The notes under the pieces: model-generated
The model's input: the letters and a program-made list of their open reading frames with translations, nothing else
Told to the model about the DNA's origin: nothing
Database searches by the model: none
In this document: piece by piece, positions 15,953-48,139 of the stretch
Position numbering within the stretch: the stretch's first letter is position 1
Layout of the letters: each line of letters starts with the position of its first letter
Sequence record: MH719082.1
DNA: 64,000 bases
Strand: one strand, 5' to 3'
Origin: Escherichia phage vB_EcoM_IME392
Program-made: the position numbers and the translations under genes

Positions 15953-16457
15953 CTGTGTATCCTTTAAGTTTATTTCTATACTTAACCATTTCCTGCTTAG
16001 CTATCTCATCGCAGAGATTATTTACTTTGTAGCGAGGATTATTGAACTTCTGATGACCTTTGACATGCTTAACCTTAATGGACTTAGGGTTAAGATCGCG
16101 AAGCATTTCCATATGCTTATCTATGAATTCCTTTAGTGCCCATTCGCAATCGCATTGGACGACTACTCTAACGCCATCGAACGCTGTCTTAGTCATGGCG
16201 AACCATAAGGTCTTCATGATCCCTTCTAGCTCTGCCCAGTTATTATCTGCAGCAGTAAATCCTCCGCGAGTTATATGAGCTCGCTGCTCACCAGGAAGAC
16301 GAATCCATCCTCCGAAGCCAGCAGCCTTACTCTTATGACAGTACGATGCATCTGAGAAGATTGTTATATACCCAGTAGGGTCCAGACCGCGTTCGGGAGT
16401 ACCCTCAAAGTGGATAACTCTACCAACATCTTTCTCACCGATAGCAGGTTTCTTCAT
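15927..16457 (-). CDS. RNase H (type 1-like)
   Basis: IFSDASY, WAELEGI and VKHVKGH...NNLCDEIAKQ blocks matching RNase HI catalytic DEDD arrangement. Confidence 0.7.
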   Translation of the reverse strand: MKKPAIGEKDVGRVIHFEGTPERGLDPTGYITIFSDASYCHKSKAAGFGGWIRLPGEQRAHITRGGFTAADNNWAELEGIMKTLWFAMTKTAFDGVRVVVQCDCEWALKEFIDKHMEMLRDLNPKSIKVKHVKGHQKFNNPRYKVNNLCDEIAKQEMVKYRNKLKGYTDAGIFSGA

Positions 16458-30872: not shown

Positions 30873-31185
30873 AGACTAAACTCTGACCTGCATGGATGCG
30901 TACTGCATGGTTCTTGTTAGAGTTAGTCAGACGAATCCACTTATTACCTTCGTCTGTAGAGAATACCTGAGCAGTTAAGCCCAGGTAAGATACAGAAAGA
31001 TTAGAGATAGAGTCTACAGTTACCGTACTATCTACCGGAAACTCTACCGATGAGCCAGCTCCAACAATGTAGCCACTCTTACGCAGCTTCATCGGAGCAA
31101 TACGACTACTGTGCTGATCGTCAGCACCAATTGTCCGAGCGAACGAGCTCTCAACGTAAACAGTTTCAGGAATATTAATCTGCAT
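30862..31185 (-). CDS. hypothetical protein (107 aa)
   Basis: Internal ATG at 31185 with AAGAGG RBS. Confidence 0.4.
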   Translation of the reverse strand: MQINIPETVYVESSFARTIGADDQHSSRIAPMKLRKSGYIVGAGSSVEFPVDSTVTVDSISNLSVSYLGLTAQVFSTDEGNKWIRLTNSNKNHAVRIHAGQSLVYGN

Positions 31186-31774
31186 TGCCAATAGCCTCTT
31201 TAACCAGGTGCTCGATTGAACTACCATGTGCCATATGGAGAAGAGACTGGAGAGTACCCATCCATACATCATCACTCACTTCGTCTTTGTACTTATTGAA
31301 GCAGGTACTGAAGATGTTGCGGCAGTTCTCCAGCTCGCTTTCGCCAAAGAAGATGTTACCCATGCTGAACTCAGTCATGATCTCACGAGATACCGCAATC
31401 GCATCTGCAACTTTACAGATGAACTTAGCTTCGGCAGATGCAGGAGTGCGGAAAGTAGGAAGTACCTCTTCCCAGATTTCCTGCTCAACTTTATTCAGAG
31501 TCTCTTTTAACTCTGGGAAGCGAGCCTTAGCAGTGTAGGGGACATCACCTGTAAAGATCTCTGGAATGTCGTGAACCAACGAGTACTGATTTACTTCCAG
31601 ACCCTGCTCAGCAGTTAAAAATCCATCCATCACCAGTTTCTGAACAATCAGAGTAGAGTAGTAAGTAACTTCGAAGCTATGCTCCGAGATAGTAGAGCGA
31701 TGAGACAGTACTTGCTTACCTGCGAAGCGATTCACGTTATTGGTACACACTGGTACCTTAAAAAGATCTTTCAT
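31175..31774 (-). CDS. HD-domain phosphohydrolase (YfbR-like 5'-deoxynucleotidase)
   Basis: H...HD...D signature (HSFEV ... HDIPEIFTGDVP). Confidence 0.55.
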   Translation of the reverse strand: MKDLFKVPVCTNNVNRFAGKQVLSHRSTISEHSFEVTYYSTLIVQKLVMDGFLTAEQGLEVNQYSLVHDIPEIFTGDVPYTAKARFPELKETLNKVEQEIWEEVLPTFRTPASAEAKFICKVADAIAVSREIMTEFSMGNIFFGESELENCRNIFSTCFNKYKDEVSDDVWMGTLQSLLHMAHGSSIEHLVKEAIGNAD

Positions 31775-31857: not shown

Positions 31858-32931
31858 TTATTCCAGAATGAACGGAGACTTATCCCAGAGGCGGTTCGCG
31901 ACCCATTTCACGAATGGTGAATTAACCAGATGCTCGCACTGGATAGACATGTGAGCTCCAGTAGTCTTGCACAGGTAATGAGCACCTGCTAACCACATCA
32001 TCACATCCAGAGTTGATCCTGGTTGGAACTCTCGACCAACATCTTCCATTACGTATTCTAGAATACTGTGATCGCTATTATAACGAGAAGCAGCATCTTC
32101 AAGAGTAGCGATGTAATGCTGGAAGTAGGTACGGATCTTATACCAGGAATTAAGTGATCCGAGATCAATCGTAGTTACCGGAGCTTCATTAATGTCGTCA
32201 ACATAAGCTCGGATATTACTTACCTGCTTCTTGATGTTCGACACTTCCGGATACCAGTGGAGATCATCCGTCATCACCACATAGTTGCCCATATCTACTT
32301 TGAGCATAGTTGCGATGATTTCCTGGATGATCGTGAACTCCACCAGATTAACGTTAGTCAATCCCCAGATTAGATCATTACTACGGTTGAATACCGTGCA
32401 GTCCAGACCACCATTACGGTACTTAAACGATAGAGCAATGTTGCAGATCATATCTGCGGTATTGATGCTGCCGATGCTGTTTACCAAACCTACATCAGAA
32501 TCACGGCTGGGATCGTGAATAGTAGCCACGCACTTACGGTTACCCAGGTCAGAACGGAGGCGGTCTGTTACAGTCTGGAGTTGATCGTAGTTATACAGAC
32601 GCTCACCGTAAGCACCACGCCAGGTAACCATATCATCGCTAAACATCTTAGCGCGAGGAACCATAATCGACATCCAGTTATCGATTGCATAGCCACCAGA
32701 CAGTACCCACAATACTTCCCCCATAATTCCGAGGATATTGTCTTTACGTTCTGGATGAGCCATCCAACGATTAATCGGATTACTTAACTCAACTACAGCA
32801 TGACCGATGGATACTACCGCCGAAGAGTTAACAGAAGTTCTGGACTTCTGCAACTCACCAGCCTTATCCATAGTATTGATGCTGTTAACCAGGATTTCAG
32901 TATTACTGTTACCGCGAATTACCGAGATCAT
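31858..32931 (-). CDS. thymidylate synthase-fold pyrimidine methylase/hydroxymethylase
   Basis: ADMICNIALSF...LDCTVFNRSNDLIWGLTNVNLVEFTII colinear with ThyA PCH...[26 protein letters not shown] core, catalytic Cys retained. Confidence 0.6.
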   Translation of the reverse strand: MISVIRGNSNTEILVNSINTMDKAGELQKSRTSVNSSAVVSIGHAVVELSNPINRWMAHPERKDNILGIMGEVLWVLSGGYAIDNWMSIMVPRAKMFSDDMVTWRGAYGERLYNYDQLQTVTDRLRSDLGNRKCVATIHDPSRDSDVGLVNSIGSINTADMICNIALSFKYRNGGLDCTVFNRSNDLIWGLTNVNLVEFTIIQEIIATMLKVDMGNYVVMTDDLHWYPEVSNIKKQVSNIRAYVDDINEAPVTTIDLGSLNSWYKIRTYFQHYIATLEDAASRYNSDHSILEYVMEDVGREFQPGSTLDVMMWLAGAHYLCKTTGAHMSIQCEHLVNSPFVKWVANRLWDKSPFILE

Positions 32932-33662
32932 TTAGAGTCCTTACGCACTGAATCAATAGACTTAACTGCAGAGGACAGTAACTCCAGACGGGCCTCCTGA
33001 GGGATCATACCAGATGGCTCATTCAGGATCATAATACCTTTACCAGTATTAGTAAAACGAGCTGTGATTGATCCAGGATACACCGGATGATTCAGAGTTA
33101 CAGAATTACACAACGCAGCACCGAATCGCTCCTCGTAGGCACGCATAGTTACCTTAAGGAGAGTAGAACTGACTGCTACAGAGTATTCCGGATCAACAAC
33201 ACGGAAGTTATTGTCCTCAATACTCTTATCCTTCGTATTGAAGAACAGAGTCATGTTATAATAATCAATAGACTCGTTACTGAGACGTAATGCCTCATCA
33301 CGAGCTTCCTGGCTAGCAAACATACTGTTATGCAGCAGGAAGTAAACGTACGAATCGAATACCGCACGATCACTGACGATCAACTCGCCACGATTGTAGG
33401 CATCCTTGAACATCTGAGTTCGCTGACGAATAAGACGCAGCTGGAACTCTACCGCTTCCATAGGATCTTCCACAGCTAAGCGCAGAATATCCATATGGGA
33501 TGTTACTCCCAGAGGAAGATGGTCACGAGTCTGTACTGCACGGAAGGTACATTCGGTTGATTCTTCCCAGCCTTTAGCCAGAGTAGATTTACCGGTACCC
33601 TGCGCACCAGACATAATTACACTGTAGCCTGGGATACTATAGTCTCTCATTATTCTCTCCAA
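32928..33662 (-). CDS. P-loop nucleotide/nucleic-acid kinase
   Basis: Walker A SGAQGTGKST near N-terminus; 244 aa. Confidence 0.55.
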   Translation of the reverse strand: MERIMRDYSIPGYSVIMSGAQGTGKSTLAKGWEESTECTFRAVQTRDHLPLGVTSHMDILRLAVEDPMEAVEFQLRLIRQRTQMFKDAYNRGELIVSDRAVFDSYVYFLLHNSMFASQEARDEALRLSNESIDYYNMTLFFNTKDKSIEDNNFRVVDPEYSVAVSSTLLKVTMRAYEERFGAALCNSVTLNHPVYPGSITARFTNTGKGIMILNEPSGMIPQEARLELLSSAVKSIDSVRKDSK

Positions 33663-33739: not shown

Positions 33740-34711
33740 CTAGCTAAACTTATACCAGCGAGGTCTCATACGGATCTCGTGATTCAGTTTATGTAGTTTC
33801 GAGAATTCGCAGAATGAGTTGGTGAACATCTGACGAGTATAGAACCGCTCATCCTCCGGCATGAAGTGGAACCATTTCTCCGGCTCCCATGCATACCCGA
33901 AATGAGCACATATCTCTTTGATGTTCTGATACCACCATTCCACGAACATCTGGTAGCCGCAAGGAGGGTTCTGGTCATTAAGCATGTACCATACCCCATC
34001 CTGCGTCCCGGGTCCACATACGATAGCATCGTTATCTGTGTACGCAGTCTCTTTAGAGTAGGACATAGTTGCCCAGCATTGATATGCCATGAACGGACCT
34101 AATCCAGATACCTGTAACAGATGCTCGATGGCCTCGGTAGCGAACGGAGACTTCCATGCCAGTAAGATAGGATCACTGTAGGTCTTCACCAGATAGGCTC
34201 TGGCAGCTACACTGTACTTAATATCCTCTGGACATACTTCATTAGCCATCTTAACTGCTGTGCTAAGGAAGTAGGCATTTGATTGCTGTGGAGCAGTGAA
34301 CGGAGGACCATCCTCATAACGACGTAGCTCTTCACGACCCATGTTATGTATGTCGTCATAGCTCATCTCATAAAGAGGAAGGACTCTGCGGAAGCGATCC
34401 ATATATGAATCACCACGGTTTATCATCTGGAAGAGTACCACGTTAAGCGCCTTACTCTCCCAGCTTAGGGAATCGTTCTCCAGAATGTTCTTGATAGCCC
34501 ATACTGTTTCACGATCGTGCTTACGGAACACGTTAGTGAATTTAAACTTACTAATCCACTTATGTTCTGTCCACGGAGGAGGTAGCTTAAGTATCTCCTT
34601 CTTATAATAAACCTCAGTCCGCTCGCGGTTATACTCCACATACTCACGTAGCTCCTCGGGATTTATCATCCCGAGTAACCCGTCGAAGTGCAAACCTAAC
34701 GGTTTAGACAT
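33740..34711 (-). CDS. hypothetical protein (323 aa) in modification cluster
   Basis: ORF track; position between kinase and glycosyltransferase. Confidence 0.5.
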   Translation of the reverse strand: MSKPLGLHFDGLLGMINPEELREYVEYNRERTEVYYKKEILKLPPPWTEHKWISKFKFTNVFRKHDRETVWAIKNILENDSLSWESKALNVVLFQMINRGDSYMDRFRRVLPLYEMSYDDIHNMGREELRRYEDGPPFTAPQQSNAYFLSTAVKMANEVCPEDIKYSVAARAYLVKTYSDPILLAWKSPFATEAIEHLLQVSGLGPFMAYQCWATMSYSKETAYTDNDAIVCGPGTQDGVWYMLNDQNPPCGYQMFVEWWYQNIKEICAHFGYAWEPEKWFHFMPEDERFYTRQMFTNSFCEFSKLHKLNHEIRMRPRWYKFS

Positions 34712-35790
34712 TAAAGAATACCTTCTTTGGTAAAGTAGTCTATTACTTCATCCTGAAGTTCTTGTGCGTAATCCTTGCGCAGATATAGATTCTCATACTG
34801 ATGTTTCAGCAGAGCATCACGATCTTTCAGTTTCTCTGCAATCTCCGCATTACTGGAGACGATCAGAGGAGCCAGTAGCTCTTCGGGGACGCCGCTCCGG
34901 ATTATTGTTCCAGCAGCATCTTTATCCACCAGCATCAGAGTACCAGAGCTCAGGTATTCGTAATAACGGTTAGGTGGGCTGGTATAGAACGAATTACTGG
35001 AGTTCCAGTCTTCGATAAGCAGTACCGCTGCATATTTAGCCACTTCATCCAGCATCTCTGACAGCTTAAACTTAGGCAGCCAGTTAATCGGAGCAGCAGG
35101 TCCCAGCCACTTACGTTCTTTAGGATCCAGCTCTTCCCAGTTTTCCTGCTCGTAGCCGTCAAATCCTGCAAGACCACCAGTATGTTTAGCGATGGACATC
35201 TGAGCTTTGTAGCTCGGCACCGACATAAACAGTTCCAGACCATCTTGCTGGGAGAAGTACTGAGTGAACTTATGGAAGCGGCCTTCACGAGCAGCACCGT
35301 AATACAGCAGGCTATTGTCCGGCTTATCTGACGATCCATAGCGAGGCTTACGACCAGGAACGTAGGTAAGACGGTTCCAGTTAATGTGATGATAGTTCTC
35401 TTCGCTAGGAGAATACTGATTACCCCAGGAAGTACGTTCAAATGCTGCTACAACTTTAAATACAGTAGCTGCGGTGATGTGTCTCCACTGCGGACCCTGG
35501 ATACGCATCTTAGACGAGTAATCCTGTCCAATCCAGTAGAACTTAGCTCCGACATCTGCCTGGTCTACCCAGAACTTATACATCTCGTCGCGGAACTTAC
35601 AGAAGGTAGGAACACCATTGATGGCGATAATCACGTCATATTTAGTGCCATCTTCCATAGCCTTAACGAACTTAGGAGTATCGTCCAACAGGTCAGCTTG
35701 AAGTCCGTAGGCTAACCAGGAAGCCAGAGTATTACTGGCAATGATGGATTTATCGCTGCATGGCGAAAAGTTAGTTACTGCAATCTTCAT
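34711..35790 (-). CDS. putative glycosyltransferase (GT-B-like)
   Basis: N-terminal MKIAVTNFSP and C-terminal GTLMLVDKD segments resemble T-even DNA beta-glucosyltransferase; similarity is weak and from memory. Confidence 0.4.
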   Translation of the reverse strand: MKIAVTNFSPCSDKSIIASNTLASWLAYGLQADLLDDTPKFVKAMEDGTKYDVIIAINGVPTFCKFRDEMYKFWVDQADVGAKFYWIGQDYSSKMRIQGPQWRHITAATVFKVVAAFERTSWGNQYSPSEENYHHINWNRLTYVPGRKPRYGSSDKPDNSLLYYGAAREGRFHKFTQYFSQQDGLELFMSVPSYKAQMSIAKHTGGLAGFDGYEQENWEELDPKERKWLGPAAPINWLPKFKLSEMLDEVAKYAAVLLIEDWNSSNSFYTSPPNRYYEYLSSGTLMLVDKDAAGTIIRSGVPEELLAPLIVSSNAEIAEKLKDRDALLKHQYENLYLRKDYAQELQDEVIDYFTKEGIL

Positions 35791-35817: not shown

Positions 35818-35850
35818 TTTAACAGCCTTTTAGCTCATCAAAGAAGCGAG
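35818..35850 (-). promoter_or_regulatory. 31-bp conserved intergenic motif (variant)
   Basis: TTAACAGCCTTTTAG...AAAGAAGCGAG; upstream GGCTGT forms hairpin with ACAGCC. Confidence 0.45.
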
Positions 35851-36872
35851 TTAGCTGATGCCCAGCTCAGCCAGTTATCGTTGAGATCGGTCAGGTAGGA
35901 GTAATCCTTATTCAGACCGAATACAGTACGGTTAGTTCCGTCGAACTTCATTATACCAGCGCCAGGAGCTCTGATGATTGCATCTTCCGTAGCCAGACAA
36001 TATTCTTTCAAGTATTCCTGGATGTTGGGACGAATACGACGGAAGGAACTATCTGCCGAGTCATAGTGGAACATATCTGCGCAGTGCCACTGTACGTAGG
36101 ATTTATCCGGACGGCTGAGTAGTTCATTACGGGTAACCATATCTTTAGGAGAATATCCCAGCTTAGCTACAGTGACTTCGTGAATACCTCCACCATTAGA
36201 CGAAGTATCCATCAGCCAGTTTTCGTCCCAGTAGAACGAAGTACCAGTACCAGTTACCTGTCCAACCTTCCAGCCCATCGCCATACCTTTAAACAACAGG
36301 TAGCAATCTTCTCCTACGGTCAACTGTTGGAAGGTTATATCGAACAGCCAGAACATCTTCTCACTGGTCTTGACCATGATACCGAGGTCAGTGGCCGGAG
36401 CAGTGTTATTATGTGACTGACGATCGCATAGTTCAACAATCTTGTAGTTACGATTCTTGAAGCTACGGACGAACGCCATCTCAAACTCAGATCCCTCGAA
36501 GTCTATAACGGAACGGTCCAGATGGAAAATATTATCTGCGAACCAGACATCATCATCCACGAAGTAGCAGATGTCTGGACACCAGTTCTGATCCTCCATT
36601 AAAATCCATGCCTTATCAAGAGCATGAGCTCGGATTCTTCCGATTACCGGATTATCGTACTTAGGACGATGCCAGAAATTAAACTGCTCGTCCCCACCGA
36701 ACTGCTCTTCCAGAACTGCCTTATCTTCTTCGGAGGCATCCTGCATAAAGTAGAAGAAACGATACTCGATAGAGTCGTCAGTCTTCTTAGCATCTTTGAA
36801 CGACTGAATCTGACGGAGTACCGACTTCATACGATGATAGGTTGGGATGATAAAAGCCACTTTGGTAGTCAT
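35838..36872 (-). CDS. GT-A fold glycosyltransferase (family 2-like)
   Basis: IIPTYHR N-terminal block and DDD (DxD) motif. Confidence 0.5.
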   Translation of the reverse strand: MTTKVAFIIPTYHRMKSVLRQIQSFKDAKKTDDSIEYRFFYFMQDASEEDKAVLEEQFGGDEQFNFWHRPKYDNPVIGRIRAHALDKAWILMEDQNWCPDICYFVDDDVWFADNIFHLDRSVIDFEGSEFEMAFVRSFKNRNYKIVELCDRQSHNNTAPATDLGIMVKTSEKMFWLFDITFQQLTVGEDCYLLFKGMAMGWKVGQVTGTGTSFYWDENWLMDTSSNGGGIHEVTVAKLGYSPKDMVTRNELLSRPDKSYVQWHCADMFHYDSADSSFRRIRPNIQEYLKEYCLATEDAIIRAPGAGIMKFDGTNRTVFGLNKDYSYLTDLNDNWLSWASANSLL

Positions 36873-36878: not shown

Positions 36879-37490
36879 TTATCCAATTTGACGAACTAAG
36901 CGAAACCCTTCGGCGTACGGCCACTGGGCAGAATATCCACGTAAGGTGGCTAGAGCTAAGATACTCTGGGTATCTCGGTCTGACTTAATCTGGGAGTCGA
37001 ATCGTCCCATAGCCTGGCACTTACACTCAATATCGTCCTTATTCAGACGCTCGAAGTAATTAGGTTCCATCTGACCGAACTGGGTCAGGGACTCGGCATA
37101 CTCATATTCCAGGATAAGCCAGTTATACGCTCGGAGAGCTACACGAGCAGCATGATTAACTAGTTGATGGTCCTGGTGTAGGCTACTGAACGGAATATAG
37201 ACTACATCCGGCCTGATTTTAGCAACATAGTCCGCAATATCCTTAGCCAATTGCGGAATATCCTTCTGAGTCATACCATCGCCTGTGGAGGCATCGTTAC
37301 GCTCCAGGCAATGTACTTCTTTGATATTCGGATAGACACCGAATGCTGCTTCGGCTTCACCACGACGGGTCTCGTCCGGAGCAGTTACTTCGAGGATGAA
37401 AAATTGGTCGTCGCGGAATTTGCTCATAATACCTCCGCAACCCAGAATCTCATCATCGTGATGTGGGCTGATAATCAATCGTGACTTCAT
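36879..37490 (-). CDS. PIG-L/LmbE family N-acetylglucosaminyl deacetylase
   Basis: SPHHDDEILGCGG matches the PIG-L zinc-binding HPDDE motif. Confidence 0.7.
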   Translation of the reverse strand: MKSRLIISPHHDDEILGCGGIMSKFRDDQFFILEVTAPDETRRGEAEAAFGVYPNIKEVHCLERNDASTGDGMTQKDIPQLAKDIADYVAKIRPDVVYIPFSSLHQDHQLVNHAARVALRAYNWLILEYEYAESLTQFGQMEPNYFERLNKDDIECKCQAMGRFDSQIKSDRDTQSILALATLRGYSAQWPYAEGFRLVRQIG

Positions 37491-37514: not shown

Positions 37515-37541
37515 GGGGTTAGGCCGTAGAGACCTAACCCC
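37515..37541 (-). terminator. intrinsic terminator (9-bp hairpin plus U-tract)
   Basis: GGGGUUAGG...CCUAACCCC followed by AUUUUUGUG. Confidence 0.55.
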
Positions 37542-37557: not shown

Positions 37558-37588
37558 TTAACAGCCTTTTAGGTCATCAAACAGGAGG
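37558..37588 (-). promoter_or_regulatory. 31-bp conserved intergenic motif (variant, overlaps 3' end of transporter CDS)
   Basis: Left half conserved; right half diverged where it overlaps last codons of 37577-38959. Confidence 0.4.
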
Positions 37589-38959
37589 AGTTTCCTTAGC
37601 CAAGAATACTTTAGGTACAAAGATCTTGAGGAACCCGAATAGAATACACAATACCCCAATCAGTACCGGAACAGCCGATACAGCTACCAGAGTCTTCGTT
37701 ACAGTTACTACGTCACCACCTGCCCAGTTAAGTGCAGCAGCAACTACACCCATGCTTACAATCCAGAATACACGAGTTCTAGGAGCGGTCATGGACTCTA
37801 CCGTAATACCTGCTGAGTCATGACCTGTAATAAAGAACAGAATCACAGACACGAGGGTAATTACTGAGAATATCCATCCGCCTGGGAAATTAGCCAGAAG
37901 CTGGAAGATATCCTGAGCACCATGTTGCAAACCGGCTACACCGAATACGGTAAACCATACGTTACTGATAATGGTAGGGAACAGTACACATCCCAGGATC
38001 AGTTCGCGAATAGTACGGCCGTAAGAGATACGTGCCACAAACGCTCCGACGAATAATGCCCAACCTACCCAGGCTGCATAGTAAGCATAAGGCCAGCTAG
38101 CCAGCCATTGCTTCTCTTCAGCAGTACTGCCAATGTTTACCGACATAGGAATAATCTGGAGCAGATAGCTGCCAGAATAGGTGATGGTCTTCCAGAGGTA
38201 TTCAAAGAATGTACCACTTACAGCAACGAATGCCATAATAGATAGAGCTACGATTACATTATATCTGGATAACCACTTAACCCCACGATCGACACCAGTT
38301 ACGGCACTAAGTACAGTGCCCAGAGTCAGGAGTGCGATAATGGTGTAAGGACCAACATCCACACCAAGGAACTCTTTAAATCCAGAACTGATCGGGCCTA
38401 CTGCGTAGACGAACGACAGGGTTAAGCCTATGATGGTCGAGAAGAGTAAGCTTATCGTATTAAGGTTATTCAGAGTTCGGGACTTGAATAACTGATTAAG
38501 CGGACGGTCTTCACCACGTACATGCAGTAAGTACCCGAATGCCACCCCTACGACTGCATACACAGCCCATGCATTAAGTCCCCAGTCAAAGAAGGTAGTT
38601 ACCATATTCTGACGTTCGGACATACCCTCCTGATGATGGTACATAGGTTCGAGTACGCCATAATAAATCATGGATACACCCATACCGGTACTAAACATCA
38701 TAGAGTAATAGGTAAAGCGATTGTATTTCGGAGTACCTTTACCCAGCTTAATGTTACCATGTTTGCTGAATACAAAGAATGCCAGGAACGCCAGGAAGAT
38801 CAGCGAAGACCAGGTAAATATGAATCCATACTGAGATATAAATACAGACTTACTCCAGTCCATTACAGCACCAAACTGGGTGGGAGCAAACATAATGGCG
38901 AGTACAATACCCACCGTTACCAGCACCGTCCCCCAGGTAACTACCTTTGAATCGGACAT
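37577..38959 (-). CDS. BCCT family transporter (betaine/carnitine/choline-type)
   Basis: Multi-pass membrane protein; FVGAFVARISYGRTIRE matches the BCCT signature. Confidence 0.8.
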   Translation of the reverse strand: MSDSKVVTWGTVLVTVGIVLAIMFAPTQFGAVMDWSKSVFISQYGFIFTWSSLIFLAFLAFFVFSKHGNIKLGKGTPKYNRFTYYSMMFSTGMGVSMIYYGVLEPMYHHQEGMSERQNMVTTFFDWGLNAWAVYAVVGVAFGYLLHVRGEDRPLNQLFKSRTLNNLNTISLLFSTIIGLTLSFVYAVGPISSGFKEFLGVDVGPYTIIALLTLGTVLSAVTGVDRGVKWLSRYNVIVALSIMAFVAVSGTFFEYLWKTITYSGSYLLQIIPMSVNIGSTAEEKQWLASWPYAYYAAWVGWALFVGAFVARISYGRTIRELILGCVLFPTIISNVWFTVFGVAGLQHGAQDIFQLLANFPGGWIFSVITLVSVILFFITGHDSAGITVESMTAPRTRVFWIVSMGVVAAALNWAGGDVVTVTKTLVAVSAVPVLIGVLCILFGFLKIFVPKVFLAKETPPV

Positions 38960-38962
38960 TGA

Positions 38963-39871
38963 TTATTCCTCAATTACGCCCTTAGCGATTAACTGGCGAC
39001 GGACGTATGCGTAGCCAGCAGGTGAAGTAGCGAGGACGATGTCCGCACTACGGAAGTTGGTTTCGATATAGAAGCACTCCTGAAGATCCCGAGTACAGAA
39101 GAGCTCAGTACTCATCATACCCTCGCGTACGTTACATGCATCTGCAACGAATTGCGCAACATCTTCGAAGTGGTCTACCGAATGACTATAGCCGAATCCA
39201 CGGGCATCAGTAGATATAACGTAGTTAGGGCAGTACGGAGTGAAGTCAGTATCTTCGTAGGATTTACCCTGGATAGTGAAGATATCTGCATAGTCCTTGA
39301 ACCCGCTCGGGCTAACCAGAAGATCCCAGGCAACTACCATACCATCGATAACATCTGCCTGAAGTACCAGAGAGGTAGTATATTCGTCCGGTGCCTTATC
39401 GCAGACCAAAATTGGGGAGTCTCCCAGAAGGTCCGACATAGTGCCCGCACCCTTGCCCCCGTGAACACGATCACGGCGTACAAACGCCTCCTGAGGCCTC
39501 TGGTACAGTCTGAACGACGGTACAATCAGCGAATCAGGCAGAGTTCCCAGGTTAGCTTCGGAGCGAAGGCAGGATAATTGGTCAGCTTTAGACCACGTAC
39601 TTTCGATAGCGTGCAGATCGTTACCGATTTTGGTATAGATATAGCTTTCCGGATTACGGCACTTACCCTGATTCAACTCTTCGATAACCGAGTCGAAATA
39701 AGGAAGTCGTACTGATCCCTCACGAGGAGCAGTTAACGCTACTGAGCCATGCTTGGTATGATCCTGATCAACTACCATAACCTGGTCCAGACTTACACCC
39801 ATCTTAAGAATCTGGGATAATGTAGCTGCCGTGTGATTAGTGCAGCCAATCATCAAATCTAACTTCTTCAT
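38963..39871 (-). CDS. hypothetical enzyme-sized protein (302 aa)
   Basis: ORF track; 4 nt downstream of transporter gene. Confidence 0.5.
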   Translation of the reverse strand: MKKLDLMIGCTNHTAATLSQILKMGVSLDQVMVVDQDHTKHGSVALTAPREGSVRLPYFDSVIEELNQGKCRNPESYIYTKIGNDLHAIESTWSKADQLSCLRSEANLGTLPDSLIVPSFRLYQRPQEAFVRRDRVHGGKGAGTMSDLLGDSPILVCDKAPDEYTTSLVLQADVIDGMVVAWDLLVSPSGFKDYADIFTIQGKSYEDTDFTPYCPNYVISTDARGFGYSHSVDHFEDVAQFVADACNVREGMMSTELFCTRDLQECFYIETNFRSADIVLATSPAGYAYVRRQLIAKGVIEE

Positions 39872-39898
39872 TTTAATTCCTCAGTTAACTTGTACAAC

Positions 39899-39928
39899 CT
39901 AACAGCCTTTCGAACCCTAAAAAGAGCG
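39899..39928 (-). promoter_or_regulatory. 31-bp conserved intergenic motif (variant)
   Basis: CTAACAGCCTTTCGAACCCTAAAAAGAGCG about 27 nt upstream of start at 39871. Confidence 0.45.
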
Positions 39929-39942
39929 AAATAATAGATATC

Positions 39943-39964
39943 TAGCCATCTCGTAAGATGGCTA
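39943..39964 (-). terminator. terminator-like hairpin
   Basis: UAGCCAUC-loop-GAUGGCUA downstream of methyltransferase gene; U-rich tail. Confidence 0.4.
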
Positions 39965-39972
39965 TGTATATA

Positions 39973-40713
39973 TTACTTTAATTCGGAGAGATCTGCGATC
40001 TTCACCTTAGCTGATACATCCCAGATTCCTTCACCAAATCCGGTATCTTCCAGCAGCTTAGGCACTTCACGTTTCTGTACCTTAGATTGCTCGTACTTAA
40101 GCAGAGGAATATTACCGGTCTTATCTGATTGATCCCACAGATAAGTAGCAGCACCGATGTTATCGAACAGTGCGAGATCTGGATTAAACTGGGTAAGGAG
40201 TCGGCAGTCCCAGTGAGACTTATGTTCCTCGAAAGGATTAGTTTCCGTGCCACGCTGACGATACTCATAGTTAGGAGTACCGATCACGATTTTAGCCTTA
40301 GACTGGAATAGCTTAGACAACACCATAAGCCCGTCTTCGCTATCCAGATGCTCCAACACATCCAGCCAGATAATAGTGCCGAATTTATCCAGCTCTTCAA
40401 TAGGAAGATCTTTCAACAGTTCAACGATATTGCAGATATAGATATCGCTATATACATTTACACTGCCTTTGATGTAGTCTTCGCAGATGTCCAGACCTGT
40501 AATCTGACCATCGAATCCTGCGTTACGGAGAGCAAGACCAATTTCTCCACGACCTAATCCCATATCCAGGATTGGCCCGGAGATAATTTCGTTACGGAGC
40601 ATCCATTGGAGAAAGTGCTTCTGGACTAAGTAGGAGGTGCCTCCGTTGCCCAGTGAAGCCTTCGTGACCTTAGTACCAGGAACGAAATTACACTCGATAT
40701 GTTTACCAAACAT
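39973..40713 (-). CDS. class I SAM-dependent methyltransferase
   Basis: Motif I ILDMGLGRGEIG and downstream acidic WLDVLEH block. Confidence 0.6.
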   Translation of the reverse strand: MFGKHIECNFVPGTKVTKASLGNGGTSYLVQKHFLQWMLRNEIISGPILDMGLGRGEIGLALRNAGFDGQITGLDICEDYIKGSVNVYSDIYICNIVELLKDLPIEELDKFGTIIWLDVLEHLDSEDGLMVLSKLFQSKAKIVIGTPNYEYRQRGTETNPFEEHKSHWDCRLLTQFNPDLALFDNIGAATYLWDQSDKTGNIPLLKYEQSKVQKREVPKLLEDTGFGEGIWDVSAKVKIADLSELK

Positions 40714-40770: not shown

Positions 40771-40792
40771 TATTGTACATATTCAAAAATTA

Positions 40793-40810
40793 GGGTGGCC
40801 GAAGCCACCC
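40793..40810 (-). terminator. intrinsic terminator (UUCG-tetraloop hairpin plus U-tract)
   Basis: GGGUGGC-UUCG-GCCACCC followed by UAAUUUUUG. Confidence 0.6.
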
Positions 40811-40817
40811 TAGTTAG

Positions 40818-45373: not shown

Positions 45374-48139
45374 CTACTCTTCCATAAACGTAGTTACGTT
45401 ATTGGAAAGGTAGGCACCAATTTTAGTGTTATATCTCTGGAAGGTAGGAACATGGGTAACCAGGATGATGTGGTTAACCGGAATGTCCTGAAGAGCATCA
45501 ATAGCTACGTCCAGAGTATTTACGTCCAGATTTCGCAGAGACTCATCCAGAATCAGACATCCTGCTCCCTTACTGAGGCTAATCAGCTTACCGATGAACA
45601 GTACGTCCACCAGGTTCTGTTGGCCACCAGACAGATCAGCATACGGAATTAACAGATCTCCAACTTTGTATTGAACATCGAAGTCAATCTTGATAGCTCC
45701 GTTAGCCTGTTCACGAACAGTAGAAATTACCATATCTCCACCAGTCATCATAGCAGCTACTTCTTTGAAGATAGAAGCAGTTACATCGCCGCTATTAGTG
45801 AACAGGCTCTGATACTCAACCAGTTTCTGATACTTAGGCTGGAGAATAGCCAACTGCGCATTAGCATCGTCGAGTTTCTTCTGAGCCTCGTCCATACGAG
45901 TCTTCAGACTACGAAGAGTAGCCATAGCGCCGATGGTAGAGTTGATCTCGATTAGCTCCTGCTCCAGCTTAGCCACTTCCTCTTCGAGAACCTGCACGGA
46001 AGGATAGGACTTAGTCTTACTCTTAAGCACTTCCACGTCGCTATTAACGGTATGGATCTTCTGACGAAGAGTAGCCACATCGTTCAGCAGACCGGACTTA
46101 CGTCTTAGTTCGGCTAATTCACTATTCTTAACGTTAAGCTTCTCTCTGAGTTCATCAGACTTAGGAGCCTTACTGATCTCAGCCTCGACAGCATCCAGCT
46201 TAGTAACAGATGCAGATCCTTGGGTTTCGAGATCATCCATCTTAGCTCTGATAGACTTCTCTACTTCTTTAATGTCCTCTTCCTTAAGGGACTGCTTACA
46301 GGTTGGGCACGTAGTAGGGATGTTGCGCATCTCGGTCTCGAGCTTAGTTAACTCCTTCTCTAAGCGAGTTAACTCATTAGTCAGAGATTCACTCTGATTA
46401 TGCAGTGACCGGATGTTACCTTCTACTTCAGATACCTCGGCATCCAGAGTAGTGATTTCGTCCCGGACCTTAGCGAGAGCGGAGTTAACCTCCTCTTCGT
46501 TAAAGTCAATCTTGAACGCAGCCAGAGAATCTTCCAGCATCTGGAGACTCTGTAGCTTACTGTCCAGATTACCCAGCTCACGGATCTTCTGACGAATATC
46601 ATCAATCTGTGGCAGGATTCGAGACTTATCTTCTTCCAGATTACTCACGTCCTTAAGTTTGGAGAAGTCGTGATCCTCCATGGTCTTAAGGACTTCTTCC
46701 TGAGCAGTTACCTGGGTCTGATAGTTACTGATCTCTACCTTACAGTTCTTAGCCGAGGCCTTTGCGACAGCTTCGTACTGGTTAATTACGGTAAGACCGA
46801 GCATCTTCGTGATCAGGTTAATACGTTCGTTGAATCCGAACTGGCTCAAGAACGGAGGACTATTCTGGGAACGATACAGAAGATCGAAGTGTTCGAGGAA
46901 TGGCAACATCTCCCAGAGCTTAGCTTCACGCTCTCGGATACTACCACCATCCATCTCATCACCATCAATCCAGACTCGGAAAGTCTGACCACCAGCCCAA
47001 TGGCGACTGATCAGGAATTCACGACCACCATACTCTAGCATCACTTCTACCAGAAGATGGTCTTGACCGCGTCTCACCACGTTACGAGGACTGTCGCTAC
47101 CAGTTAAGCAGTAGTTAAGAGCTCTCAGCAACGAGGATTTACCGTTACCAGTTTCGCCGTAGAGATAAGTAAGACCTCGCTTAAAGTTAAGCTCCAGCTT
47201 ATCAATACTGCGGAAGTTCTCTACCTTAATACTATTCAAGGTAAAGTTAAGGTCGAAGACCGACTCGGAACGATCAACGTGGGTAGACATCTCATCATGG
47301 ATATCTTTAAGACCCTTTGCCCGAACGACTTTGTCGATTACTTCTTCAACATCGATAGATTTAACTGAGATGCGTGAAGCATCCATCATCTGAGCTCTTT
47401 CACGAACTACCAGATGAGGGTAATTATCCATACCGGCAGGTACTTCATCTTCCCAGTACATCTTGAGGTATTTGTAGGAGTCAGACTCTACCGGAACCCG
47501 CTGCCAGGAAAGATCTTTAAGATCCAGCAGCACCAAGCTACCGTCCTGACAGTCACCCATCCCGTGAGGAATAGGTACGTTAACCGAGTGGGTATGACCG
47601 ATGCTGATAGGACGATGGATGTCACCAGCAAATCCCAGCTCATACTTAGTATCGTCGAACTCCTGACCAAACATAGAGGACAGAGTAATGTGGCCAATAA
47701 GGACATCTACTTTATCTTCGATAAAACTGAAGTCCTGGGTAGGACGCCAGTCGCTAAAGGCGACCTTACGGCCACCTAAGTTCAGGATTTTACCATCGAC
47801 ATATTCTGCCTTACCAGCGAGGATCGGCACCAGTGAGTTCTGGTAGTGATCAGCATCTACTGATTTGGAGTTAATGTCGTGGTTACCCAGAATATAATAA
47901 ATCTCGGTAAACTGCTCACCGAGGATCTCCATAAACTGGGATGTAGCGTGTGCAATTTTAGGCTCATGCTGAGCCTTATGCACTAAGTCGCCAGCGATAG
48001 ACAGACAGGTTACTTTATGTTCCCTGCCCATCTCCGCCATACGATGAGCTAAACCGATAAACTGCTTTAAGCGAAACCCTTCCGAGTTATGCTGCTGAAA
48101 TTCATGGATATGAATATCAGCTACGATCAACATTTTCAT
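45374..48139 (-). CDS. fused SbcD/Mre11-like nuclease and SbcC/Rad50-like ATPase
   Basis: N-terminal metallophosphatase motifs (DIHIHE, GDLVH, GNHD, GHTH); then Walker A GETGNGKS, coiled coils with CPTC zinc hook, signature LSGGQQ and Walker B ILDES in one 921-aa ORF. Confidence 0.8.
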   Translation of the reverse strand: MKMLIVADIHIHEFQQHNSEGFRLKQFIGLAHRMAEMGREHKVTCLSIAGDLVHKAQHEPKIAHATSQFMEILGEQFTEIYYILGNHDINSKSVDADHYQNSLVPILAGKAEYVDGKILNLGGRKVAFSDWRPTQDFSFIEDKVDVLIGHITLSSMFGQEFDDTKYELGFAGDIHRPISIGHTHSVNVPIPHGMGDCQDGSLVLLDLKDLSWQRVPVESDSYKYLKMYWEDEVPAGMDNYPHLVVRERAQMMDASRISVKSIDVEEVIDKVVRAKGLKDIHDEMSTHVDRSESVFDLNFTLNSIKVENFRSIDKLELNFKRGLTYLYGETGNGKSSLLRALNYCLTGSDSPRNVVRRGQDHLLVEVMLEYGGREFLISRHWAGGQTFRVWIDGDEMDGGSIREREAKLWEMLPFLEHFDLLYRSQNSPPFLSQFGFNERINLITKMLGLTVINQYEAVAKASAKNCKVEISNYQTQVTAQEEVLKTMEDHDFSKLKDVSNLEEDKSRILPQIDDIRQKIRELGNLDSKLQSLQMLEDSLAAFKIDFNEEEVNSALAKVRDEITTLDAEVSEVEGNIRSLHNQSESLTNELTRLEKELTKLETEMRNIPTTCPTCKQSLKEEDIKEVEKSIRAKMDDLETQGSASVTKLDAVEAEISKAPKSDELREKLNVKNSELAELRRKSGLLNDVATLRQKIHTVNSDVEVLKSKTKSYPSVQVLEEEVAKLEQELIEINSTIGAMATLRSLKTRMDEAQKKLDDANAQLAILQPKYQKLVEYQSLFTNSGDVTASIFKEVAAMMTGGDMVISTVREQANGAIKIDFDVQYKVGDLLIPYADLSGGQQNLVDVLFIGKLISLSKGAGCLILDESLRNLDVNTLDVAIDALQDIPVNHIILVTHVPTFQRYNTKIGAYLSNNVTTFMEE

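What the first reader, a model, noticed from the sequence alone, without database searches (positions are those of the whole stretch)
37577..40713. Phage-encoded BCCT-family transporter flanked by an unassigned enzyme and a SAM methyltransferase
The 460-aa multi-pass membrane protein carries the BCCT signature FVGAFVARISYGRTIRE; secondary transporters are rare in phage genomes. It is followed 4 nt later by a 302-aa unassigned protein and then a class I SAM-dependent methyltransferase, directly downstream of the glycosyltransferase/deacetylase genes. Two non-exclusive readings: import of a small amine or quaternary ammonium substrate that feeds the adjacent modification pathway, or an auxiliary metabolic module that manipulates host osmolyte status during infection.
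Basis: partly seen in the sequence, partly recalled or inferred. Interest (0 to 1): 0.7.

Follow-up and report, generated by a model that had tools for sequence, protein, structure and literature searches.

The report
Phage importer wired to DNA-hypermodification genes
An E. coli phage carries an intact betaine/choline-type membrane importer that is translationally coupled to a previously unrecognised ATP-grasp enzyme inside its thymidine-hypermodification gene cluster, which suggests the phage scavenges an outside compound to decorate its own DNA.

Summary
Window 37577-38959 (-) encodes an intact 460-aa BCCT transporter (Pfam E=1e-92). It lies 3 nt downstream of a 302-aa ORF, and a weak class I methyltransferase lies further upstream. 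An exact protein match identifies the source as Escherichia phage vB_EcoM_IME392, where the transporter is already annotated.

New here:
- The "unassigned" 302-aa protein has an ATP-grasp fold (AF2 pLDDT 84.7; Foldseek hits RimK, Ddl, LysX).
- The ATP-grasp→BCCT gene pair is conserved, overlapping or nearly so, in five divergent phage lineages (GC 30-46%; BCCT identity down to 34-42%).
- In each lineage with enough flanking sequence (all but the 1.9-kb L013 fragment) the pair sits among 5-hmdU hypermodification genes. In three lineages a PIG-L de-N-acetylase follows directly.
- BCCT dN/dS is 0.03-0.07.
- The methyltransferase is lineage-specific and is swapped for other tailoring genes in sister phages.

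Best reading (inferred, not shown): the transporter imports an onium compound, probably one bearing a carboxylate. The ATP-grasp enzyme then ligates it onto the de-acetylated amino-sugar of a glycosylated thymidine. The osmolyte-AMG reading is disfavoured. The substrate and the target are not established. The decisive test is LC-MS of virion DNA with labelled betaines.

The parts
37577..38959 (-). BCCT-family secondary transporter, 460 aa. It is a minimal 12-TM core without N- or C-terminal regulatory domains.
   Evidence: Pfam PF02028 E=1e-92. Best solved relative is BetP, 168 bits. The TM4 aromatic box (BetP W189/W194/Y197) and TM8 W374/W377 are kept. W371 becomes Y, W373 becomes A, the G153 position is Ser, and TM10 carries a phage-specific 'GHD'. 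dN/dS is 0.03-0.07.
38963..39871 (-). Divergent ATP-grasp enzyme, 302 aa: a putative carboxylate-amine ligase, less likely a kinase. It is translationally coupled to the BCCT gene.
   Evidence: No Pfam, PHROG, NCBIfam or PDB sequence hit. AF2 model from 10 sequences has pLDDT 84.7 and pTM 0.86. Foldseek against PDB gave 290 hits at E<=1e-3; the 50 listed are ATP-grasp enzymes, led by RimK, Ddl, LysX and PsnB. Foldseek against BFVD hits phage ATP-grasp proteins. Invariant residues are F130, R132, G138, K140, E256, E270, R274 and D277, with N272 conserved in 9 of 10 sequences (E-x-N-x-R).
39973..40713 (-). Probable class I SAM-dependent methyltransferase, 246 aa. It is a lineage-specific tailoring gene, not part of the conserved core.
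   Evidence: Sub-threshold Pfam Methyltransf_25/23/31/11 hits. Weak NCBIfam and PDB similarity to UbiG, BchM and Hen1-type O-methyltransferases. Among the related loci recovered it is present only in EP_H11 and is replaced by five genes in L007/L014. dN/dS is 0.03.
36879..37490 (-). PIG-L / LmbE-family zinc de-N-acetylase, 203 aa.
   Evidence: Pfam PF02585 E=6.7e-14. Nearest NCBIfam hits are BshB1/BshB2, below cutoff. PDB hits are TT1542 and diacetylchitobiose deacetylase. The PHHDDE and HQDH motifs are visible in the translation. It follows the BCCT gene in the window, L007, L014 and L002.
35838..36872 (-). 344-aa protein, putative GT-A-type glycosyltransferase. This assignment is unverified.
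   Evidence: No HMM hit even at E<=10. Only close homologues exist. The N-terminal 'FIIPTYHR' and 'VDDDVWF' motifs are seen by eye. A paralogue is duplicated in L007/L014.
34711..35790 (-). 359-aa protein, possible GT-B-type glycosyltransferase. Support is weak.
   Evidence: Pfam Glyco_trans_1_2 at E=0.023, below cutoff. Conserved in L007 at 75% identity.
33740..34711 (-). aGPT-Pplase-type enzyme (alpha-glutamyl/putrescinyl thymine pyrophosphorylase clade 1 homologue; Pfam HMUDK_hel).
   Evidence: Pfam PF18723 E=3.2e-35. tblastn hits genes annotated as aGPT-Pplase clade 1 in ViI-like phages and a gene in RP13.
32928..33662 (-). P-loop kinase (AAA_28), a candidate 5-hmdU DNA kinase.
   Evidence: Pfam AAA_28 E=2.1e-9. 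PHROG 'thymidylate kinase'. Syntenic with the TS-like gene in L002, L007 and L012.
31858..32931 (-). Thymidylate-synthase homologue, a probable dUMP hydroxymethylase.
   Evidence: Pfam PF00303 E=4.7e-12. PHROG 3676 E=6.5e-71.
31175..31774 (-). HD-domain YfbR-like 5'-deoxynucleotidase.
   Evidence: Pfam PF12917 E=1.6e-14.
39943..39964 (-). Terminator-like hairpin between the methyltransferase and ATP-grasp genes.
   Evidence: 9-bp stem. A hairpin sits at the equivalent position in L007, 7600-7628.
37515..37541 (-). Strong terminator-like hairpin plus T-run directly after the BCCT stop codon. It closes the two-gene ATP-grasp/BCCT unit.
   Evidence: 11-bp stem with 7 GC pairs and tail ATTTTTGTGT. 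Conserved in L007 at 9975-10000.
40791..40812 (-). Terminator-like hairpin between the topoisomerase II subunit gene and the methyltransferase gene.
   Evidence: 9-bp stem, tail ATTTTTG. The equivalent hairpin in L007 is at 3628-3649.

Best explanation
The BCCT gene is the import arm of a substrate-scavenging branch of the phage's thymidine hypermodification pathway. It is not a free-standing osmolyte gene.

Shown:
- The carrier is intact and under strong purifying selection.
- It is the second gene of a hairpin-bounded bicistron whose first gene encodes an ATP-grasp-fold enzyme.
- This pair recurs in five divergent phage lineages. Wherever the flanks are long enough to see, it lies among 5-hmdU-type modification genes.
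- In three lineages a PIG-L de-N-acetylase follows the pair directly. In L002 all three ORFs overlap.

Inferred mechanism:
1. The phage replaces T with 5-hmdU (TS-like hydroxymethylase, HD nucleotidase).
2. It elaborates that base through the kinase and aGPT-Pplase and through glycosyltransferases into a glycan that contains GlcNAc.
3. The PIG-L enzyme removes the N-acetyl group, either on DNA or on the nucleotide-sugar precursor, and exposes a free amine.
4. The BCCT carrier imports an onium compound that the host does not reliably hold in its cytoplasm. A carboxylate-bearing one is most plausible: glycine betaine, gamma-butyrobetaine or carnitine.
5. The ATP-grasp enzyme activates a carboxylate as an acyl-phosphate and ligates the imported compound to the exposed amine. 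This is an 'acetyl swap' with the same logic as MshA/B/C and BshA/B/C.

The predicted product is DNA carrying a tethered permanent positive charge. That fits the general theme of cationic thymidine hypermodifications, which block nucleases and offset backbone charge. The methyltransferase would add a lineage-specific O- or N-methyl decoration.
For: Intact BCCT. Purifying selection: dN/dS 0.03-0.07. The BCCT is more conserved between the window and L007 (89% aa) than topo II-A (75%), PIG-L (76%) or the ATP-grasp protein (70%).

ATP-grasp fold. Conserved Gly-rich loop and E-x-N-x-R motif.

Gene coupling:
- Window: TAA-TCA-ATG with an internal RBS.
- L012: 1-nt overlap.
- L013: 8-nt overlap.
- L002: ATP-grasp/BCCT overlap of 35 nt and BCCT/PIG-L overlap of 32 nt.
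- L007/L014: same order as the window.

The lineages span GC 30-46% and BCCT identity 34-90%. A sixth, more distant ATP-grasp homologue (P0110) is followed immediately by a different importer, an MFS Sugar_tr protein. The enzyme-plus-importer pairing is therefore the conserved feature.

The pair is bounded by terminator-like hairpins in both the window and L007.

The phage group (SP15-like UDG-PolA phages: YerA41, Carin-5, RP13, EP_H11) is reported or predicted to carry oligosaccharide-hypermodified T, and Carin-5 has a GlcNAc deacetylase in its gene block (PMC12686479; bioRxiv 10.1101/2025.03.26.645540).

The cation-pi box residues of BetP are largely retained, and W373 is replaced by Ala, which would enlarge the pocket. 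The closest named bacterial homologue (Zobellella, 40% identity) sits in a carnitine/gamma-butyrobetaine catabolic island.

Independent precedent for 'phage BCCT = substrate supply': two Vibrio phages carry a cytidylyltransferase-choline-kinase fusion, a BCCT-like carrier and LicD in a row.

From established knowledge: E. coli does not make betaine or carnitine de novo, and it expresses BetT, ProP, ProU and CaiT only under particular conditions. That would explain why the phage needs its own importer.
Against: Everything beyond gene linkage and fold is inference.
- No chemistry of IME392 or EP_H11 DNA is known.
- The transported substrate cannot be read from the sequence. The protein fails all substrate-specific NCBIfam cutoffs, and two of the four TM8 tryptophans are replaced.
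- The two 'glycosyltransferases' next to PIG-L have no significant HMM support, so the GlcNAc step is assumed.
- L012 has the pair but no PIG-L in the 14.5 kb seen.
- ATP-grasp folds include kinases, and ITPK1 is among the hits. The MFS partner in L010 is of the sugar/polyol-porter type, which fits a kinase as well as it fits a ligase.
- The ATP-grasp protein is acidic (pI 4.85), with no sign of a DNA-binding surface. It may act on a soluble precursor, or not on the DNA pathway at all.
- A DNA modification that depends on an external nutrient would be conditional, which is unusual.
Confidence: 0.5

Rival explanations
1. Kinase / phospho-head-group variant. The ATP-grasp protein is a small-molecule kinase of the ITPK1 type. 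It phosphorylates an imported alcohol such as choline or carnitine. The phospho-compound is then attached as a phosphodiester to the thymidine-linked glycan, in the manner of the Lic phosphocholine pathway.
For: ITPK1 kinases appear among the fold hits with E-values like those of the ligases. Relatives of this phage group carry phosphate or glycerol-phosphate within their T modifications (PMC12686479). L012 has a CTP_transf_like cytidylyltransferase four genes downstream of the pair. The distant homologue in L010 pairs with a sugar/polyol-type MFS porter. Vibrio phages show that a phage BCCT can serve a choline-kinase / cytidylyltransferase / LicD route.
Against: None of the window ORFs scanned (all ORFs of about 170 aa or more, plus the cluster genes) matched a cytidylyltransferase, a LicD or another phospho-head-group transferase. 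Most ATP-grasp enzymes with an N-terminal pre-ATP-grasp domain are carboxylate-amine or carboxylate-thiol ligases. The directly adjacent PIG-L deacetylase is explained better by a ligase that re-acylates the freed amine.
Confidence: 0.2
2. Auxiliary metabolic gene for host osmolyte status. The carrier loads the infected cell with compatible solutes to sustain turgor and metabolism or to time lysis, independently of DNA modification.
For: BCCT carriers are classically osmoprotectant importers. The best HMM and PDB similarity is to glycine-betaine carriers. A BCCT gene in an algal virus has been discussed in these terms (PMC13431477).
Against: This reading does not explain the conserved translational coupling to an ATP-grasp gene in five lineages, the overlap with PIG-L in L002, or the constant placement inside hypermodification clusters. 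The protein has no BetP-type osmosensing termini.
Confidence: 0.1
3. The ATP-grasp/BCCT pair decorates something other than DNA, such as a virion protein, the host envelope or a soluble metabolite. On this view it merely sits in the early-gene region next to the DNA-modification genes.
For: The pair is insulated by terminator-like hairpins, as a moron-type cassette would be. The ATP-grasp protein is acidic. RimK, LysX and TTL-type ATP-grasp enzymes modify proteins. The target of the Vibrio-phage Lic-like module is equally unknown.
Against: In the four lineages with enough flanking sequence, the pair lies within a few genes of the TS-like and kinase genes. In L012 it is flanked on both sides by hypermodification genes. 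PIG-L and GT genes are its immediate neighbours.
Confidence: 0.12
4. The carrier works as an exporter or antiporter that removes a toxic or inhibitory by-product of the modification chemistry, for example trimethylamine.
For: A BCCT trimethylamine transporter (8zw8) scores almost as well as BetP, 161.5 against 168 bits. CaiT is an antiporter.
Against: No gene in the cluster would obviously generate such a by-product. Coupling an exporter to an ATP-grasp enzyme has no clear rationale.
Confidence: 0.03

Closest known systems
BCCT carriers of the BetP/OpuD glycine-betaine type (TC 2.A.15)
   Same: Full-length LeuT-fold BCCT core (Pfam E=1e-92). The TM4 aromatic box and TM8 W374/W377 are conserved, as is the 'ARIS.GRTIRE' loop.
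   Different: Only about 30% identical. It falls below the NCBIfam cutoffs for betaine_BCCT, BetT, CaiT and YeaV, and even below the TIGR00842 subfamily cutoff. BetP W371 becomes Y and W373 becomes A. The G153 position is Ser, which is neither the Gly of betaine carriers nor (from my own recollection of the BetP G153D work, not checked here) the Asp of choline carriers. TM10 carries a phage-specific 'GHD'. There are no N- or C-terminal regulatory domains. The gene is phage-encoded and operonic with an ATP-grasp gene.
Thymidine hypermodification pathways built on 5-hmdU (Lee et al. 2018 PNAS; Lee et al. 2022 NAR, PMC8989533) and the glycan-type T modifications of SP15, YerA41 and Carin-5 (PMC12686479)
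   Same: It has a TS-like hydroxymethylase, a P-loop kinase, an aGPT-Pplase homologue and an HD nucleotidase. GT-like genes and a GlcNAc-type deacetylase are present. The phage belongs to the SP15-like UDG-PolA group.
   Different: The NAR 2022 pathway paper contains none of the words 'transporter', 'ATP-grasp', 'deacetylase', 'betaine' or 'choline'. tblastn with the BCCT and the ATP-grasp protein gave no hit in YerA41 or RP13 in the phage collection. This would be an added branch that draws on an imported building block.
Mycothiol (MshA/MshB/MshC) and bacillithiol (BshA/BshB/BshC) biosynthesis
   Same: Same chemical logic: glycosyltransfer of GlcNAc, then PIG-L/LmbE-family de-N-acetylation, then ATP-dependent ligation of a carboxylate to the freed amine. 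The window's PIG-L gives its best NCBIfam hits to BshB1/BshB2.
   Different: The ligase here has an ATP-grasp fold and is not an MshC or BshC homologue. The acceptor would be a DNA-linked or nucleotide-linked sugar. The acyl donor would be imported rather than cysteine. The GT step is not verified. This is a functional analogy, not family membership.
Lic phosphocholine-decoration pathway (LicB importer, LicA kinase, LicC cytidylyltransferase, LicD transferase; PMC8890701)
   Same: A dedicated importer of an onium compound is genetically coupled to the enzymes that attach it to a macromolecule. Vibrio phages 1.031.O and 150E35-1 carry such a module with a BCCT-like carrier in the LicB role.
   Different: None of the window ORFs scanned matched a choline kinase, a cytidylyltransferase or LicD. 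The coupled enzyme is an ATP-grasp protein. To my knowledge LicB belongs to the DMT superfamily rather than to the BCCT family (not checked here).
Virus-encoded BCCT genes interpreted as auxiliary metabolic genes (e.g. Micromonas polaris virus MpoV-44T.A, PMC13431477)
   Same: A viral genome encodes a BCCT carrier.
   Different: In that case the gene is an isolated accessory gene discussed only in terms of osmoregulation. Here it is embedded in an enzyme operon that is conserved across lineages.

Membership tests
BCCT transporter family (Pfam PF02028) | Full-length match to the family profile above the curated threshold | tested here: met
   311.6 bits against a cutoff of 27, E=1e-92, covering model positions 1-481 of 485.
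BCCT transporter family (Pfam PF02028) | Aromatic (cation-pi) substrate box: TM4 W189/W194/Y197 and the TM8 Trp cluster (BetP numbering) | tested here: inconclusive
   All three TM4 residues are conserved. In TM8, W362, W366, W374 and W377 are conserved, but W371 becomes Y and W373 becomes A.
BCCT transporter family (Pfam PF02028) | Membership of a substrate-defined equivalog (glycine betaine BCCT, BetT choline, CaiT carnitine antiporter, YeaV) | tested here: not met
   Scores of 244, 155, 104 and 111 bits against cutoffs of 650, 695, 541 and 647. TIGR00842 scores 232 against 407.55.
BCCT transporter family (Pfam PF02028) | Demonstrated transport of an onium compound | not testable with these tools
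   Needs uptake assays.
BetP-type osmoregulated betaine carriers | Extended N-terminal domain and C-terminal osmosensing helix | tested here: not met
   The protein starts a few residues before TM1 and ends about 15 residues after TM12. The alignment to BetP covers only the core.
ATP-grasp superfamily | Three-domain ATP-grasp fold | tested here: met
   AF2 model pLDDT 84.7. Foldseek probability is 1.00 to RimK, Ddl, LysX, PsnB, PurK, CPSase and ITPK1. The model matches an independent BFVD model of the same protein at TM 0.98.
ATP-grasp superfamily | Sequence-profile match to an ATP-grasp family | tested here: not met
   No Pfam, PHROG, NCBIfam or PDB hit.
ATP-grasp superfamily | Nucleotide and Mg2+ binding motifs (basic residue plus Gly-rich loop; E-x-N near the C-terminus) | tested here: inconclusive
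   Invariant F130-x-R132...G138-x-K140 and E270-x-N272-x-R274...D277 (N272 conserved in 9 of 10 sequences) in the 10-sequence alignment. These were assigned by eye, not by structural superposition.
ATP-grasp superfamily | ATP-dependent carboxylate activation or ligation | not testable with these tools
   Needs enzymology.
PIG-L / LmbE de-N-acetylases | Profile match and zinc/catalytic motifs (HxDD near the N-terminus; HxxH) | tested here: met
   PF02585 at 52.9 bits against 28.2. PHHDDE and HQDH are present in the translation. PDB relatives are TT1542 and diacetylchitobiose deacetylase.
5-hmdU-based thymidine hypermodification clusters | TS-like dUMP hydroxymethylase, 5-hmdU DNA kinase-type P-loop protein and aGPT-Pplase/AADT-type transferase encoded together | tested here: met
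   PF00303, AAA_28 and PF18723 on adjacent genes. tblastn of the 323-aa protein hits annotated aGPT-Pplase clade 1 genes.
5-hmdU-based thymidine hypermodification clusters | Chemically modified thymidine in virion DNA | not testable with these tools
   No data for IME392 or EP_H11. It is predicted in bioRxiv 10.1101/2025.03.26.645540.
Class I SAM-dependent methyltransferases | Profile match above threshold and SAM-binding motif I | tested here: inconclusive
   Four Pfam MT families hit at E between 4e-5 and 1e-3, all just below their gathering scores. Motif I, ILDMGLGRGE, is visible. The best PDB hit has E=1.9e-4.
Lic-type phosphocholine decoration pathway | Choline kinase, CTP:phosphocholine cytidylyltransferase and LicD transferase next to the importer | tested here: not met
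   None was found among the window ORFs scanned. All three are present in Vibrio phages 1.031.O and 150E35-1.
Mycothiol/bacillithiol-type GT-deacetylase-ligase triad | GlcNAc-transferring GT, LmbE-family deacetylase and MshC/BshC-type ligase | tested here: not met
   The deacetylase is present. The GT identity is unverified. The ligase has an ATP-grasp fold and is not an MshC or BshC homologue. This is an analogy only.

The most novel reading that the evidence does not exclude
A lineage of phages decorates its DNA with a quaternary-ammonium compound (betaine, gamma-butyrobetaine or carnitine type) scavenged from the environment. A phage-encoded BCCT importer brings it in, and an ATP-grasp ligase attaches it to a de-acetylated amino-sugar on hypermodified thymidine. 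This would be the first DNA-modification pathway with its own membrane transporter. It would also be the first nucleobase modification whose building block is an exogenous nutrient, which would make the phage's epigenetic armour dependent on the environment.
Probability: 0.4. Interest if true: 0.85.

Novelty: new variant of a known kind. Interest (0 to 1): 0.72.

Why it matters
The known nucleobase hypermodifications that I am aware of are built from ordinary intracellular metabolites such as amino acids, polyamines and nucleotide sugars. A dedicated importer, conserved in operon with a ligase-type enzyme inside such a cluster, points to a new chemical class of DNA adduct that is cationic and derived from an onium compound. 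It also points to a new principle: a virus takes over membrane transport to obtain a building block for its genome chemistry.

Practical consequences follow. Such DNA is likely to resist restriction and CRISPR nucleases, standard polymerases and standard sequencing, as already seen for the relatives YerA41 and Carin-5. The modification level could depend on the growth medium. The ATP-grasp enzyme and the minimal BCCT carrier would be new tools for DNA derivatisation and for studying BCCT specificity.

The hypothesis can be tested directly with two cultured phages, IME392 and EP_H11.

Tried and rejected
- **IMG/VR scans.** Scans with the BCCT, the 302-aa protein and the 10-sequence ATP-grasp alignment found no relatives.
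- **Metagenome scan.** The JGI metagenome scan with a phage-BCCT alignment returned only one unrelated 25%-identity BCCT.
- **GTDB genome scan.** This could not be run because the alignment lacked a stretch conserved enough to search with.
- **First structure prediction.** The model built from five close sequences was unusable (pLDDT 39.5). It worked only after adding the distant members found by the exhaustive HMM search.
- **Sequence-level links of the 302-aa family.** No link to any known family was found.
- **The 344-aa 'glycosyltransferase'.** The last large homology search returned only close relatives with no Pfam domain, so the GT assignment of the two genes next to PIG-L remains unverified.
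- **Literature.** Searches combining BCCT, transporter or ATP-grasp with phage hypermodification found nothing relevant.
- **Recent capture from the host.** Rejected. The nearest bacterial BCCTs are only 40-44% identical, and the characterised E. coli BCCT types BetT, CaiT and YeaV score far below family cutoffs.
- **Pseudogene or chance ORF.** Rejected.
- **pI as a clue to DNA binding.** Uninformative, because all the cluster proteins are acidic.

Full report
**1. The observation**

The three ORFs are real and lie on the minus strand: a 246-aa ORF at 39973-40713, a 302-aa ORF at 38963-39871, and a 460-aa ORF at 37577-38959.

- The 460-aa protein matches Pfam BCCT end to end (E=1e-92, model positions 1-481 of 485). 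Its best solved relative is BetP, at 168 bits.
- An exact-sequence look-up identifies the window as Escherichia phage vB_EcoM_IME392. There the gene is already labelled 'putative Bcct family transporter' and its neighbour 'hypothetical protein'.
- The only close relative in the phage collection is EP_H11 (92% nt identity), where the gene is labelled BetT.
- Transcription runs from high to low coordinates.
- The junction reads TAA-TCA-ATG, with a GAGGAA ribosome-binding site inside the upstream gene.
- Phage BCCT genes are indeed rare. Of 26 tblastn hits among 50,697 phage records, only EP_H11 and two Vibrio phages look like genuine phage genomes. Most of the others I judge to be bacterial contigs filed as phage.

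**2. The neighbourhood**

Downstream on the same strand lie:

- a PIG-L de-N-acetylase;
- two proteins without HMM support that may be glycosyltransferases;
- an aGPT-Pplase homologue (Pfam HMUDK_hel E=3e-35, with tblastn hits to annotated aGPT-Pplase clade 1 genes);
- a P-loop kinase, a TS-like protein and an HD nucleotidase.

The window also encodes a 1099-aa PolA, split RNAP beta' pieces, topoisomerase II subunits and further GT-like ORFs. Two papers place EP_H11 in the SP15-like UDG-PolA phage group with YerA41, Carin-5 and RP13. Members of that group carry, or are predicted to carry, oligosaccharide- and phosphate-bearing thymidines. Carin-5 has a GlcNAc deacetylase in its modification gene block. 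Neither paper mentions a transporter.

**3. The 302-aa protein is an ATP-grasp enzyme**

It has no hit in Pfam, PHROGs, NCBIfam or PDB sequences. An exhaustive HMM search of 1.8 billion cluster representatives found only nine hits at E<=1e-3, seven of them full-length family members.

A first AF2 model from five close sequences failed (pLDDT 39.5). With ten diverse members the model reached pLDDT 84.7 and pTM 0.86. Foldseek against the PDB returned 290 hits at E<=1e-3. The 50 listed are ATP-grasp enzymes: RimK, D-Ala-D-Ala ligases, LysX/ArgX, PsnB/MdnC, L-amino-acid ligases, PurK, CPSase and ITPK1. BFVD returned the protein's own UniProt model (TM 0.98) followed by phage and giant-virus ATP-grasp proteins.

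The family alignment has an invariant F-x-R...G-x-K Gly-rich segment and an E-x-N-x-R...D motif in which only the Asn varies, in one of ten sequences. By eye, these correspond to the nucleotide and Mg2+ motifs of the superfamily.

**4. The conserved unit is ATP-grasp followed by BCCT, often followed by PIG-L**

| Locus | GC | Arrangement |
|---|---|---|
| L007 / L014 | 45-46% | ATP-grasp (71% id), BCCT (89% id), PIG-L, same order as the window |
| L002 | 31% | ATP-grasp overlaps BCCT by 35 nt; BCCT overlaps PIG-L by 32 nt; next to topo II, kinase, TS-like and HD genes |
| L012 | 30% | ATP-grasp and BCCT overlap by 1 nt; TS/kinase/HD on one side; GT4, cupin, cytidylyltransferase, AADT-like, inositol-1-P-synthase-like, HMUD2 and aGPT-Pplase genes on the other |
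| L013 | 36.5% | GT32-like, ATP-grasp, BCCT (8-nt overlap); only 1.9 kb recovered |
| L010 | 40% | More distant ATP-grasp homologue followed directly by an MFS Sugar_tr importer |

- In six of the eight family lineages (the window, L007/L014, L002, L012, L013 and L010), the gene after the ATP-grasp gene encodes an importer.
- In the window and in L007 the pair is bracketed by terminator-like hairpins.
- The BCCT is under strong purifying selection (dN/dS 0.03-0.07). Between the window and L007 it is more conserved than the topoisomerase subunit.
- The methyltransferase is confined to IME392 and EP_H11 among the related loci recovered. In L007/L014 five genes take its place: a GT32-like gene, a paralogue of the 344-aa protein, a PS-decarboxylase-like gene, a second weak ATP-grasp-like gene and a 151-aa ORF. 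It is therefore a lineage-specific tailoring gene.

**5. What the transporter sequence says**

- The BetP TM4 box (W189, W194, Y197) and TM8 W374 and W377 are kept.
- W371 becomes Tyr and W373 becomes Ala.
- The G153 position is Ser.
- TM10 reads FFITGHDSAG in all the phage members, against ...TSADSA... in canonical carriers.
- The N- and C-terminal regulatory extensions are absent.
- The protein fails every substrate-defined NCBIfam cutoff.

An onium-type substrate is likely, but which one cannot be read off. The closest bacterial relatives are only 40-44% identical. One of them stands alone in a bacterial contig. The other, from Zobellella aerophila, sits in an island with carnitine dehydrogenase-type, BKACE, gamma-butyrobetaine-hydroxylase-like, Rieske oxygenase and esterase genes. 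That is a lead towards carnitine or gamma-butyrobetaine-type substrates and nothing more.

**6. Mechanism**

Shown: an intact carrier, an ATP-grasp fold, a PIG-L deacetylase, their conserved coupling, and the hypermodification context.

Inferred: the carrier imports an onium compound that the host does not reliably hold in its cytoplasm. The ATP-grasp enzyme ligates it, most simply carboxylate to amine, onto the amino-sugar exposed by PIG-L on a glycosylated 5-hmdU derivative or its nucleotide-sugar precursor. This is the GT, deacetylase, ligase logic of mycothiol and bacillithiol synthesis, with a different ligase fold.

An independent precedent supports the idea that a phage BCCT supplies substrate to a decoration pathway. 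Vibrio phages 1.031.O and 150E35-1 carry, in a row, a cytidylyltransferase-choline-kinase fusion, a BCCT-like carrier and a LicD transferase.

My estimates: about 0.65 that the pair serves the thymidine-modification pathway, and about 0.5 for the ligase / acetyl-swap version.

Rivals:
- a kinase / phospho-head-group route (0.2);
- a non-DNA target (0.12);
- an osmolyte AMG (0.1);
- an exporter (0.03).

**7. Comparison and novelty**

The parts are members, or structural members, of known families: the BCCT by HMM, ATP-grasp by fold only, and PIG-L by HMM. The cluster is a known kind of system. The combination is not described in the literature I could search.

I rate this a new variant of a known kind, with a substantial chance of leading to a new class of DNA adduct. 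The main weaknesses are these:
- there is no chemical evidence;
- the neighbouring 'GT' genes are unverified;
- PIG-L is absent from the visible part of L012;
- the ATP-grasp enzyme could be either a ligase or a kinase.

Noticed in passing
L008 7824-10822 (Vibrio phage 1.031.O, MG592415) and L017 1827-4828 (Vibrio phage 150E35-1, OX241562): Three adjacent genes encode a fusion of a CTP_transf_like cytidylyltransferase with a choline-kinase/APH domain, a 411-aa BCCT-like carrier, and a LicD-family transferase. Together these make a complete Lic-like choline -> CDP-choline -> phosphocholine-transfer pathway in a phage. The records annotate the first two genes only as 'coil' and 'TMhelix' proteins. 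The target is unknown.
   Followed up: partly
window 15141-15665 (-): This 174-aa ORF matches Pfam Acb1 (anti-CBASS cyclic-nucleotide phosphodiesterase) just at the gathering score (27.7 against 27 bits).
   Followed up: no
window 16457-18025 and 19904-21418 (-): Two separate ORFs carry RNA polymerase Rpb1/beta' domains 1-2 and domains 3-5. This is a split multisubunit RNAP of the kind seen in jumbo and AR9-like phages, here in a phage of about 116 kb.
   Followed up: no
window 45374-48139 (-): This 921-aa ORF fuses an Mre11-type metallophosphoesterase with a Rad50/SMC ATPase in a single polypeptide. The zinc-hook match is weak.
   Followed up: no
window 2737-3705 (-) and 56349-57140 (-): Two further GT-like ORFs lie far from the cluster. 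One matches Glycos_transf_1 at 26.2 bits. The other is a weak Gly_transf_sug/DXD match and is 26% identical to the GT32-like gene that replaces the methyltransferase in L007. This suggests that a multi-sugar glycan is built.
   Followed up: partly
L007 3674-7578 and L014 1808-5712: Sister phages replace the methyltransferase with a five-gene cassette. It includes a phosphatidylserine-decarboxylase-like protein (31 bits against a cutoff of 22) and a second, weak ATP-grasp_3-like protein. This hints at a different tailoring chemistry, for example decarboxylation of an appended serine or aspartate.
   Followed up: partly
L012 5912-14536: In an AT-rich relative (30% GC) the pair sits next to a GT4, a cupin/mannose-6-P-isomerase-like gene, a CTP_transf_like cytidylyltransferase, an AADT-like gene, a myo-inositol-1-phosphate-synthase-like gene, and HMUD2 and aGPT-Pplase genes. 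This is an unusually elaborate thymidine-modification cluster, possibly containing inositol or phosphodiester groups.
   Followed up: no
L002 9312-11708: In this relative the topoisomerase II A-subunit gene is interrupted by an intein with an HNH endonuclease domain.
   Followed up: no
L015 (Zobellella aerophila BAABCX010000002.1, 185158-202549): This bacterial island holds three BCCT genes interleaved with carnitine/gamma-butyrobetaine catabolic genes (BKACE, 3HCDH, GBBH-like TauD, a Rieske oxygenase with its reductase, an esterase and AraC regulators). The short 463-aa BCCT in it is the closest named relative of the phage carrier.
   Followed up: partly
window 37577-38959 versus L007 8557-9939: The BCCT is 89% identical between IME392 and the L007 phage, while the flanking ATP-grasp, PIG-L and topoisomerase genes are 70-76% identical. 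Either the carrier is under unusually strong constraint or it has been exchanged more recently.
   Followed up: partly
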